From NCBI GenBank assembly GCA_963820025.1, contig CAWFYL010000007.1, forward strand, positions 798,693 to 862,692: a stretch of 64,000 nucleotides of DNA, given 5' to 3'. Origin of the DNA: an uncultured Acidimicrobiia bacterium. GTDB lineage: Bacteria > Actinomycetota > Acidimicrobiia > IMCC26256 > JAENVU01. The notes beneath the pieces are model-generated. The model ran no database searches. It had not been told where the DNA came from and saw only the letters and a list, made by a program, of their open reading frames with translations. Positions 60,391 to 61,218 of the stretch are shown one piece after another; within the stretch, counting starts at the first letter, position 1; each line of letters starts with the position of its first letter. Both the position numbers and the translations under genes were made by a program.

Positions 60391-60985
60391 GTGAGCACCC
60401 GGACCGCCGACCCGCCGCCGAGCGCGGAGGCCTCGCGGCCTCCGGCGCCCGAGCCGCTCGAGCTGGTCCGCGCGTTCGTGAACACCCGCGATGTGGAGTC
60501 GGGCGCCGACGAGCTCGGCGACCGCGATGCGGCCGGGGCGTGGCTCGTGGGGCACGGGTTGCTCGAGGCCGGGGTGCGTCTCGACCCGGCCGAGCGCGAG
60601 CGGGTCGTCGAGCTGCGCGAGGCGCTGCGCGCGCTGCTGCTCGCGAACAACGGGGTCGATCTCGAGCCCGCGGCGGTCGAGACGCTGAACTCGTTCGCGG
60701 CGACCGCACCGCTCGAGGCGCGCTTCGACCCGACCGGCACGATCGCGGTGACCGGTCGCGACGGCGGGGTGGAGGGTGTGCTCGCGGCAGCTGCTCGCGG
60801 TCGTCGTCCAGTCCGTCGCCGACGGGACCTGGGCGCGCCTGAAGGCCTGCCGCGAGGACGGCTGCCAGTGGGCGTTCTACGACCGGTCGCGCAACCACTC
60901 CGGGCAGTGGTGCGTCATGGCGGTGTGCGGCAACCGCAACAAGGCGCGGACCTACCGCGAACGGCGCCGTTCTGGAAGAGGCTGA
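60391..60985 (+). pseudogene. ABATE-domain / CGNR zinc-finger protein; single frameshift near 60780-60790; stop codon lies in repeat A
   Basis: N-terminal PLELVRAFVNTRD... (ABATE) is in ORF 60391... C-terminal RLKACREDGCQWAFYDRSRNHSGQWCVMAVCGNRNKARTYRER (CGNR motif) is in ORF 60776..60985. Length is 3n+1. Confidence 0.85.
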
Positions 60986-61218
60986 GCGGCTGCACCCGGC
61001 GTGTCGCGCGGCCGGTTGGTGCCGATGCTTCCCGCTTGCCGGAGCATGAGGCCGGGGCCGTTCTGGAAGAGGCTGAGCGGCTGCAACTCGGCGTGTCGCG
61101 CGGCCGGTTGGTGCCGATGCTTCCCGCTTGCCGGAGCATGAGGCCGGGGCCGTTCTGGAAGAGGCTGAGCGGCTGCAACTCGGCGTGTCGCGCGGCGGGT
61201 TGGTGCCGATGCTTCCCG
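60967..61218 (-). repeat. repeat family A, locus 2: 91/92-bp unit x about 2.7 copies, inverted relative to locus 1
   Basis: Units start at 60967, 61058 and 61150. The core ...CTGAGCGGCTGCAAC...GGTTGGTGCCGATGCTTCCCGC is the reverse complement of the locus-1 core. Confidence 0.9.

What the first reader, a model, noticed from the sequence alone, without database searches (positions are those of the whole stretch)
60967..61218. Repeat family A, locus 2: 91/92-bp units x about 2.7 copies, inverted relative to locus 1, supplying the CGNR stop codon
The units at 60967, 61058 and 61150 share the ~55-nt core with locus 1 in reverse complement but have a different variable part (...CGCTTGCCGGAGCATGAGGCCGGGGC). 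Copies 1 and 2 differ by an indel (GCACCCGGC versus GCAACTCGGC), so the period is not a multiple of three. This argues against a coding repeat, even though locus 1 has a 96-bp in-frame period. The TGA that ends the CGNR ORF (60983-60985) is the TGA of the repeat motif GAGGCTGAGCGG.
Basis: seen in the sequence. Interest (0 to 1): 0.55.

Follow-up and report, generated by a model that had tools for sequence, protein, structure and literature searches.

The report
Tandem copies of a palindromic mini-element
The 92-bp repeats are three head-to-tail copies of a small non-coding palindromic DNA element that has spread into the gaps between facing gene ends in a group of uncultured soil Acidimicrobiia and here supplies the stop codons of both neighbouring genes; it is an undescribed family of an ordinary kind of bacterial repeat.

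Summary
Window 60962-61256 has 3.2 tandem units of 91/92 bp that share a core with 15786-16072 in reverse complement, and the CGNR stop codon (60983-60985) lies in the repeat. Each unit is a complete 84-85-nt imperfect palindrome, CTGAGCGGCY...GGCCGCTCAG, plus a 7-nt tail. It has a near-invariant off-centre core, GGTGCSGNTGCTTCCCGC. A third, single copy sits at 28641-28720.

About 21 further copies were found in metagenome contigs and in Acidimicrobiia MAGs. Twelve of 14 resolvable loci lie between convergent genes. At 9 independent flanks the neighbour's TGA is the TGA of the terminal repeat. Here that applies to both CGNR and the facing GNAT gene (61246-61248).

Orthologous CGNR-GNAT loci show 0 copies (13-14 nt between stops), 1 copy or 3 copies. 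Only the 2 closest of 60 CGNR orthologue clusters have the repeat-encoded tail SG[GR]G.

Head-to-tail junctions with exactly 7 nt recur at five independent loci. There is no Rfam hit, no coding capacity, no target-site duplication and no transposase in view.

Best reading: an undescribed MITE/REP-like interspersed palindrome, locally amplified, and probably a transcript-end hairpin. It is a new member of a known kind and of moderate interest.

The parts
60391..60985 (+). ABATE/zf-CGNR gene, +1 frameshift near 60783-60790. Its last five codons (RSGRG) and its TGA (60983-60985) are repeat sequence.
   Evidence: Pfam ABATE and zf-CGNR hits. tblastn of the L020 orthologue switches frame between ...EGVL and QLLAVV. 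C-termini of 60 orthologue clusters.
60962..60981 (+). Leading partial unit (GGCGCCGTTCTG + GAAGAGG), resembling a unit's 3' end plus the 7-nt tail. It encodes the CGNR tail.
   Evidence: Start of the array by Tandem Repeats Finder. The junction CGTTCTG-N7-CTGAGCG is identical to the internal junctions.
60982..61065 (+). Unit 1: complete 84-nt palindromic element, followed by the 7-nt spacer GAAGAGG (61066-61072).
   Evidence: Covariance model R1, 92.5 bits, E=2e-17, full length 1-85.
61073..61157 (+). Unit 2: complete 85-nt element, followed by the 7-nt spacer GAAGAGG (61158-61164).
   Evidence: R1, 100 bits, E=5e-19.
61165..61256 (+). Unit 3: complete 85-nt element (61165-61249) plus the 7-nt tail GAAGAAG. 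Its 3' terminal repeat GGGCGATCAG holds the GNAT stop (TCA, 61246-61248).
   Evidence: R1, 92.1 bits. Sequence. Flank listing.
61246..62028 (-). GNAT acetyltransferase gene, convergent with CGNR. Its stop codon and last codons overlap unit 3 and its tail.
   Evidence: ORF list. Pfam Acetyltransf_7 and Acetyltransf_1. Orthologues at 94-76% identity.
15786..16072 (-). Locus 1 of the same family: one complete element (15786-15870, ends CTGAGCGACC/GGTCGCTCAG) followed by two 96-nt units made of 56 nt of element plus 40 nt of flank-like sequence. It lies between an ABC-2 permease gene (+) and a SnoaL-like gene (-).
   Evidence: The orthologous locus in L013 has a single element.
28641..28720 (+). 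Single copy of the family, 5 nt after the glutathione peroxidase stop codon and 92 nt before the lon start codon.
   Evidence: 74.8 bits. It folds as one long hairpin of -48 kcal/mol, z = -2.4.

Best explanation
The array is three head-to-tail copies, plus a 20-nt leading fragment, of a roughly 92-nt non-coding interspersed element. The element is an 84-85-nt imperfect palindrome closed by a 9-10-bp terminal inverted repeat (CTGAGCGRCY...GGYCGCTCAG). It has an off-centre conserved core (GGTGCSGNTGCTTCCCGC) and a 7-nt purine-rich or GATGTGG-like 3' tail. The element belongs to a lineage-restricted family of uncultured Acidimicrobiia. It propagates to new sites, overwhelmingly the few-nucleotide gaps between convergent genes. 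Its two terminal repeats each carry a TGA reading outward, so it can terminate both neighbours, as it does here for CGNR and GNAT. Shown: family membership, the palindromic architecture, presence/absence between orthologous loci, the convergent-gene context, the stop-codon overlap, and recurrent exact 7-nt head-to-tail junctions. Inferred: spread is by transposition, MITE/REP-like, using an enzyme encoded elsewhere. Also inferred: arrays grow by insertion next to an existing copy and/or unequal exchange between units, and once transcribed the hairpins act as 3'-end structures that terminate or stabilise both convergent transcripts.
For: Architecture. Single copies fold as one long hairpin closed by CUGAGCGGCC/GGCCGCUCAG. 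In 27 non-redundant copies the terminal stem is paired, and position 8 covaries perfectly, 13 G-C against 13 A-T. That position was not fixed by the search pattern. Helix 1 is 98% paired on alignment A3.

Dispersal. There are three loci in this 64-kb window and three copies in 20 kb of L022. About 21 of the 26 metagenome contigs hit by a degenerate pattern are true members.

Insertion polymorphism. The CGNR-GNAT orthologues L020 (86% GNAT identity) and L021 (76%) have only 13-14 nt between the stop codons. L019 has one copy. L033 and the window have three. L030 carries a copy where the window (49106-49177) has none. Locus 1 is single-copy in L013 and has no element in L022.

Context. Twelve of 14 independent loci with both flanks resolved are convergent. 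At 9 independent flanks the neighbour's stop codon is exactly the TGA of the terminal repeat, and only 2 flanks read deeper.

Arrays. Head-to-tail junctions of exactly 7 nt occur at five independent loci: the window with its orthologues L019, L031 and L033, plus L027, L037, L040 and L046. L024 has 8 nt. In L033 neighbouring units are of two distinct sequence types, which suggests more than in-situ duplication.

Assembly. Four of the five contigs L015-L019 end inside the element, as expected for a multicopy repeat.

Non-coding. Copy lengths vary from 80 to 86 nt, and no Rfam family matches.
Against: No transposase or autonomous parent element was seen, though only 64 kb plus short contigs could be inspected. 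There is no clean target-site duplication.

The near-invariant non-palindromic core is unusual for a purely selfish MITE, as are the one-sided U-G wobbles (position 10: 13 T-G, 12 C-G, no A-C). Both hint at a strand-specific constraint, acting on RNA or on single-stranded DNA.

Only one copy matched the strict pattern in the one related GTDB representative genome, so copy number may be low in some relatives.

The single copy in L019 could be a short-read collapse of an array. Its close relative L031 (97% identical in the flank) has at least 2 units.

The terminator or stabiliser role is inference. No U-tract terminator is detected.
Confidence: 0.7

Rival explanations
1. It is a host-functional structured RNA, such as a 3'-UTR element or a small RNA cut from the ends of convergent transcripts. 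Its conserved core would be the working part, for example a C-rich single-stranded seed or a protein-binding site. Duplication would raise dosage.
For: The core TGCTTCCCG with the upstream GGTGC is conserved across copies that otherwise differ by 25-40%; GGTGC was not fixed by the search pattern. Wobble pairs lie on one strand only (T-G 13, A-C 0 at stem position 10; A-U 19 against G-U 13 at an inner pair). One inner pair shows G-C to C-G exchange in 7 sequences.
Against: Summed folding energies are the same on both strands, -1368 against -1378 kcal/mol over 32 copies. The interior pairing differs from copy to copy. There is no Rfam match even at E<=10. Close relatives lack the element at orthologous sites with no replacement.
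Confidence: 0.17
2. It is a purely local tandem duplication (a VNTR or MIRU-like minisatellite) of a native bidirectional terminator hairpin, with no mobility. Similar hairpins elsewhere would reflect convergent selection for stop-codon-containing terminators.
For: These genomes do place both convergent stop codons in small hairpins without the element: CCTGAC-N12-GTCAGG in L021, and a 37-nt hairpin with the same ends at window 23998-24034. Copy number differs between close relatives.
Against: An 85-nt sequence with a shared non-palindromic core recurs at unrelated loci next to unrelated genes in several genomes. Convergence would not recreate the core or the 7-nt tail. Empty orthologous sites have 13-14-nt spacers that share no detectable homology with the element.
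Confidence: 0.06
3. It is a protein-coding repeat, or an artefact of assembly.
For: Long ORFs cross the array on both strands. All four arrays in the window have about 3 copies, which could suggest a limit set by k-mer length.
Against: Such ORFs are expected at about 72% G+C. The periods of 91 and 92 break the reading frame. Orthologues with 0 or 1 copy have no gene there. The units carry copy-specific substitutions and an indel. An independent assembly, L033, has the same three-unit, 92-nt structure.
Confidence: 0.03

Closest known systems
MITE-type imperfect palindromes of about 100-150 bp: ERIC/IRU of enterobacteria and Correia/NEMIS elements of Neisseria
   Same: Short and non-coding, with terminal inverted repeats that let the whole unit fold as one long hairpin. 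Dispersed in transcribed intergenic regions close to gene ends, with presence/absence differences between relatives. (Properties of ERIC and Correia elements are from my own knowledge.)
   Different: There is no sequence similarity and no TA or other target-site duplication. The strongly conserved core is off-centre, not at the ends alone. The location is almost exclusively between convergent genes (12 of 14). Exact head-to-tail arrays with 7-nt junctions are common. The host is Acidimicrobiia.
REP / BIME / REPIN elements mobilised by RAYT tyrosine transposases
   Same: Palindromic extragenic repeats that lie predominantly downstream of ORFs, between convergent or unidirectional genes, often clustered, and thought to act as RNA hairpins (PMC3733652). 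There is no target-site duplication. One inverted pair is seen in L022.
   Different: REPs are 20-40 bp and carry a GTAG or CGTC tag at one end (PMC3733652). This element is 85 nt and has neither tag. Its clusters are mostly head-to-tail, not alternating. No RAYT gene was seen.
MIRU-VNTR loci of Mycobacterium tuberculosis
   Same: Tandem direct repeats of 46-101 bp in an actinobacterium, sitting at gene junctions, overlapping neighbouring stop codons and varying in copy number between strains. (MIRU properties are from my own knowledge.)
   Different: MIRUs sit inside operons between co-directional genes, carry small ORFs that couple translation, and have no dyad symmetry. Here the unit is a palindrome between convergent genes, with single-copy members elsewhere.
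Bidirectional hairpin terminators shared by convergent genes, and REP hairpins within 15 nt of a stop codon that stall ribosomes
   Same: A stable hairpin (-39 to -51 kcal/mol in most copies) lies at or within about 29 nt of both stop codons. The functional analogy is from my own knowledge of work on E. coli REP sequences near stop codons.
   Different: There is no U-tract. The function is untested here. The hairpin is a repeated family member, not a locus-specific sequence.

Membership tests
[quoted passage not shown] | Short (<~500 bp), no coding capacity | tested here: met
   Copies are 80-86 nt and vary in length. The 91/92-nt periods break the reading frame. No gene is present at 0- or 1-copy orthologous loci.
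[quoted passage not shown] | Terminal inverted repeats | tested here: met
   The ends CTGAGCGRCY/GGYCGCTCAG pair over 9-10 bp. Position 8 covaries G-C (13) against A-T (13). Helix 1 is 98% paired.
[quoted passage not shown] | Target-site duplication flanking each copy | tested here: not met
   No identical direct repeats flank the single copies. Only the 3' side has a conserved GATGTGG-like or GAAGAGG tail. The 5' side has just a purine-G preference.
[quoted passage not shown] | Many dispersed copies, with insertion polymorphism between relatives | tested here: met
   Three loci in the window, three copies in L022 and about 21 metagenome loci. Empty sites in L020 and L021, and in the window relative to L030.
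[quoted passage not shown] | An autonomous parent IS with the same ends | not testable with these tools
No transposase was noticed next to any copy. A suspected TnpB-like ORF at 17668-18117 has no supporting Pfam hit.
REP / RAYT system | 20-40 bp palindrome with a GTAG or CGTC tag at one end (PMC3733652) | tested here: not met
   The element is 85 nt. No conserved GTAG/CTAC or CGTC tag is present in the aligned copies.
REP / RAYT system | Located downstream of ORFs, between convergent or unidirectional genes | tested here: met
   Twelve of 14 loci are convergent and one is unidirectional.
REP / RAYT system | Associated RAYT (Y1/HUH transposase) gene flanked by the repeats | not tested
   No whole genome of a carrier was available. 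None was seen in the DNA fetched.
MIRU-VNTR | Tandem direct repeats of 46-101 bp, variable in number | tested here: met
   Period of 91-92 nt. One, at least two, or three units at the same locus in relatives.
MIRU-VNTR | Sits between co-directional genes of an operon, with a small ORF bridging stop and start codons; no dyad symmetry | tested here: not met
   The flanking genes are convergent and the unit is a palindrome.
Known RNA family (Rfam 15) | Covariance-model match | tested here: not met
   No hit at gathering score in the window. No hit on the element even at E<=10.
Integron attC site | RYYYAAC ... GTTRRRY boundaries, with cassette ORFs between sites | tested here: not met
   The ends are CTGAGCG/CGCTCAG. 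The units abut with 7 nt between them and no ORF.

The most novel reading that the evidence does not exclude
The element may be a self-targeting single-strand (HUH/IS200-like or other) mobile hairpin that inserts precisely after its own 3' tail, building exact 92-nt concatemers. It may have been selected or domesticated as a portable 'gene-end module' that delivers two outward-facing stop codons plus a bidirectional transcript-end hairpin to convergent gene pairs. Its conserved C-rich core would then be a strand-specific recognition site for the mobilising enzyme or a host RNA-binding factor.
Probability: 0.15. Interest if true: 0.6.

Novelty: new member of a known kind. Interest (0 to 1): 0.35.

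Why it matters
The finding explains all three family-A loci of the window with one object. It also shows that small palindromic repeats remodel gene ends in a poorly studied, uncultured actinobacterial class. They replace C-terminal residues and stop codons of both convergent neighbours, occasionally extend ORFs (the SnoaL-like gene here, and DUF885 in L022), and break metagenome assemblies. For annotation, it flags spurious ORFs and altered C-termini. For biology, the family offers a tractable case for two questions: how head-to-tail arrays of palindromic elements arise, and whether stop-codon-bearing hairpins act as bidirectional terminators in high-G+C bacteria that lack U-tract terminators.

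Tried and rejected
1. Strict DNA patterns. GCAAC-N18-28-TGCCGATGCTTCCCGC in the 185,579 representative genomes gave 14 loci, of which 13 were chance hits and one (L013) was real. An even stricter pattern found nothing in the metagenomes. Only after diverged copies turned up in L022 did a pattern built on the two ends plus TGCTTCCCG succeed. Of its 26 loci, about 5 (L026, L032, L035, L041 and possibly L049) look like chance matches.

2. Exact-protein look-up of the window's GNAT found nothing on record.

3. Rfam gave nothing at gathering or permissive thresholds. Plasmid BLAST gave nothing.

4. The structure appears only in the palindrome's own register.

5. Strand bias of folding, tested as evidence for an RNA: there is none in summed energies, only one-sided wobbles.

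6. A suspected TnpB-like ORF next to locus 1 (17668-18117) has no Pfam support and was dropped.

7. A second, broader covariance model found no extra copies in the window and none in L020, L021 or L023.

8. Considered and rejected from the anatomy: attC sites, CRISPR, type III toxin-antitoxin repeat arrays, a coding repeat, and a U-tract terminator.

9. Literature searches found no description of such a family in Acidimicrobiia.

Full report
**Observation.** Tandem Repeats Finder reports one array at 60962-61254 with period 92, 3.2 copies, 93% matches and score 488. It also confirms the 1-nt indel between units 1 and 2 (periods 91 and 92) and the TGA at 60983-60985 inside GAGGCTGAGCGG.

The shared core with the 96-bp array at 15815-16072, in reverse complement, is real (alignment A1). 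Its 17-mer GTGCCGATGCTTCCCGC occurs 7 times in the window at up to 3 mismatches, against 0.68 expected by chance. The seventh hit reveals a single copy at 28641-28720, 5 nt after a glutathione peroxidase gene.

**What a unit is.** The single copy in the window, and a single copy found in an Acidimicrobiia MAG (L013), both start CYGAGCGGCC and end GGCCGCTCAG. Each folds as one long imperfect hairpin of -45 to -49 kcal/mol.

Re-phasing the locus-2 array on these ends shows that each unit is a whole 84-85-nt palindrome. The units are 60982-61065, 61073-61157 and 61165-61249, separated by 7 nt (GAAGAGG) and followed by GAAGAAG.

In units 1 and 2 the 3' end has decayed to GGCCGTTCTG. Unit 3 keeps GGGCGATCAG. 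A 20-nt leading fragment (60962-60981) looks like the end of a further unit and encodes the CGNR tail.

At locus 1 only the first unit (15786-15870) is a whole element, with ends CTGAGCGACC/GGTCGCTCAG. The next two 96-nt units join 56 nt of element to 40 nt of flank-like sequence.

**Neighbours.** The array lies between two convergent genes.
- On the plus strand is an ABATE/zf-CGNR gene.
- On the minus strand is a GNAT acetyltransferase gene, 61246-62028.
- The CGNR stop codon is bases 2-4 of unit 1. The GNAT stop codon (TCA on the plus strand, 61246-61248) is the mirror-image triplet of unit 3. Both genes therefore end in the element's terminal repeats.

**Orthologous loci.** Relatives were found through the GNAT protein.
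- L020 (86% GNAT identity) and L021 (76%) have the same CGNR-GNAT pair with only 13-14 nt between the stop codons and no element.
- L019 (94%) has one perfect copy, and both stop codons lie in its two terminal repeats.
- L033 (88% nucleotide identity, an independent assembly) has three complete units with 7-nt spacers. L031 starts inside the array.
- Four of the five contigs L015-L019 end within the element, as expected of a multicopy repeat.
- One caveat applies. L019's single copy could be a short-read collapse, because L031 is 97% identical in the flank and has at least two units.

Only the two nearest of the 60 closest CGNR clusters end in ...SG[GR]G. The other 58 mostly end 2-4 residues after R-x-R with unrelated tails; a few are longer. 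Empty-site orthologues end ...RRKEA* and ...RQRTT*. The native stop codon and last residues were therefore replaced by repeat sequence.

For locus 1, L013 has a single copy at the orthologous site. The more distant L022 has an unrelated 76-nt spacer there.

**The family.** L022 turned out to hold three diverged copies elsewhere, including an inverted pair. A degenerate pattern based on the two ends and TGCTTCCCG then recovered 26 metagenome contigs, about 21 of them true members by covariance model.

In 27 non-redundant copies the terminal stem is paired. Position 8, which the pattern did not fix, covaries perfectly: 13 G-C against 13 A-T. On alignment A3, helix 1 is 98% paired.

The interior pairs differently from copy to copy. 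Even so, the off-centre core GGTGCSGNTGCTTCCCGC is conserved. Downstream of the 3' end the consensus is G-A/G-T-G-T-G-G.

Summed folding energies are equal on the two strands, -1368 against -1378 kcal/mol. However, wobbles fall on one strand only: at position 10 there are 13 T-G, 12 C-G and no A-C.

No Rfam family matches. No plasmid matches.

**Context statistics.** Twelve of 14 independent loci with both flanks resolvable lie between convergent genes. One is unidirectional and one is unclear (with the gene tables). Against a rough expectation of one quarter, this is about 3e-6 by my own binomial estimate.

At 9 independent flanks the neighbour's stop codon is exactly the TGA of the terminal repeat. 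At 17 flanks the stop lies 0-29 nt outside. Only 2 ORFs read deeper: the SnoaL-like gene at window locus 1, and DUF885 in L022, which is 680 aa there against 565 aa in L023. If ORFs entering the element did so in random frames, one third would stop at that TGA. Nine of 11 gives P of about 1e-3 by my estimate. This indicates either selection for immediate termination or insertion at stop codons.

**Arrays.** Head-to-tail junctions of exactly 7 nt occur at five independent loci: the window with its orthologues L019, L031 and L033, plus L027, L037, L040 and L046. L024 has 8 nt. The 7 nt equal the 3' tail seen on single copies, so the propagating unit is about 92 nt.

In L033 the first unit is of a different sequence type from the other two. 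The window's unit 3 looks chimeric. Both insertion next to an existing copy and exchange between units are therefore plausible. The data do not separate them.

**Interpretation.** The best-supported reading, with confidence about 0.7, is an undescribed MITE/REP-like interspersed palindrome that has colonised convergent gene ends in one clade of uncultured Acidimicrobiia, locally amplified to three copies here. Taxon labels come from L013 and from two protein hits named as Acidimicrobiia MAGs.

The following are inferred, not shown:
- mobility through a transposase encoded elsewhere;
- the mode of array growth;
- a role as a bidirectional transcript-end hairpin; there is no U-tract.

The main rival is a host-functional RNA or single-strand recognition element. 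It is kept alive by the conserved core and the one-sided wobbles.

**Comparison with known kinds.** The element works most like ERIC or Correia-type palindromic MITEs and like REP/BIME elements. REPs likewise lie downstream of ORFs between convergent or unidirectional genes and are thought to act as RNA hairpins (PMC3733652).

It is not a REP: it is 85 nt against 20-40 bp, and it has no GTAG or CGTC tag. It fails the target-site-duplication criterion of classical MITEs. It is not a MIRU, because the genes are convergent and the unit has dyad symmetry. It is therefore filed as a new member of a known kind.

**Verdict.** The thing itself is ordinary in kind but new as a family. It has two tidy features: built-in outward-facing stop codons, and exact 7-nt head-to-tail junctions. 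Interest 0.35.

Noticed in passing
window 60776-60800: The CGNR gene has a +1 frameshift. The N-terminal part reads in the frame of 60391 and the C-terminal part in the frame of 60776. Orthologues read ...GALG[RQ]LLAVV across the break. It is either a pseudogene or a sequencing error.
   Followed up: yes
window 59279-59458 and 16548-16736: A second repeat family (B): 61 nt x 3.0 (100% identical units) and 64 nt x 3.0, inverted relative to each other. They share CCGGAGATCTTSGGAA, and the 64-nt unit folds better than shuffles (z = -2.5). Both sit at gene ends, and both encode spurious N- or C-terminal ORF extensions.
   Followed up: partly
window 21129-21300; L016-L018 about 435-607: A third interspersed element of about 173 nt. 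The window copy is 91% identical to an insertion between the glyoxalase and GNAT genes in L016-L018. That insertion is absent from the same site in the window and in L015.
   Followed up: partly
window 23998-24034: A 37-nt hairpin, CCTGAGCG-TCCGGA...TCCGG-CCGCTCAGG, has the same ends as family A but no core. It could be an internally deleted copy or a progenitor-like hairpin between gene ends.
   Followed up: no
L021 10785-10815: At the empty CGNR-GNAT site both convergent stop codons sit in the stem of a small hairpin (CCTGAC-N12-GTCAGG). Hairpins containing stop codons between convergent genes therefore exist in this clade without the element.
   Followed up: no
window 49106-49177 versus L030 1061-1190: A relative carries a family-A element between two convergent genes where the window has only a 34-nt spacer. 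The window's downstream stop codon sits in GGCGCTCAG, which resembles the element's 3' end.
   Followed up: partly
window 15997-16110; L022 3408-3755: Two ORFs read through elements. The SnoaL-like protein gains about 33 residues compared with L013. DUF885 in L022 is 680 aa against 565 aa in L023, running through an inverted pair of elements into the convergent SDR gene.
   Followed up: partly
proteins P0251, P0282, P0294: Three CGNR orthologue clusters have longer tails ending in [HR]PTS. This may be another case of gene-end remodelling by a different insertion.
   Followed up: no
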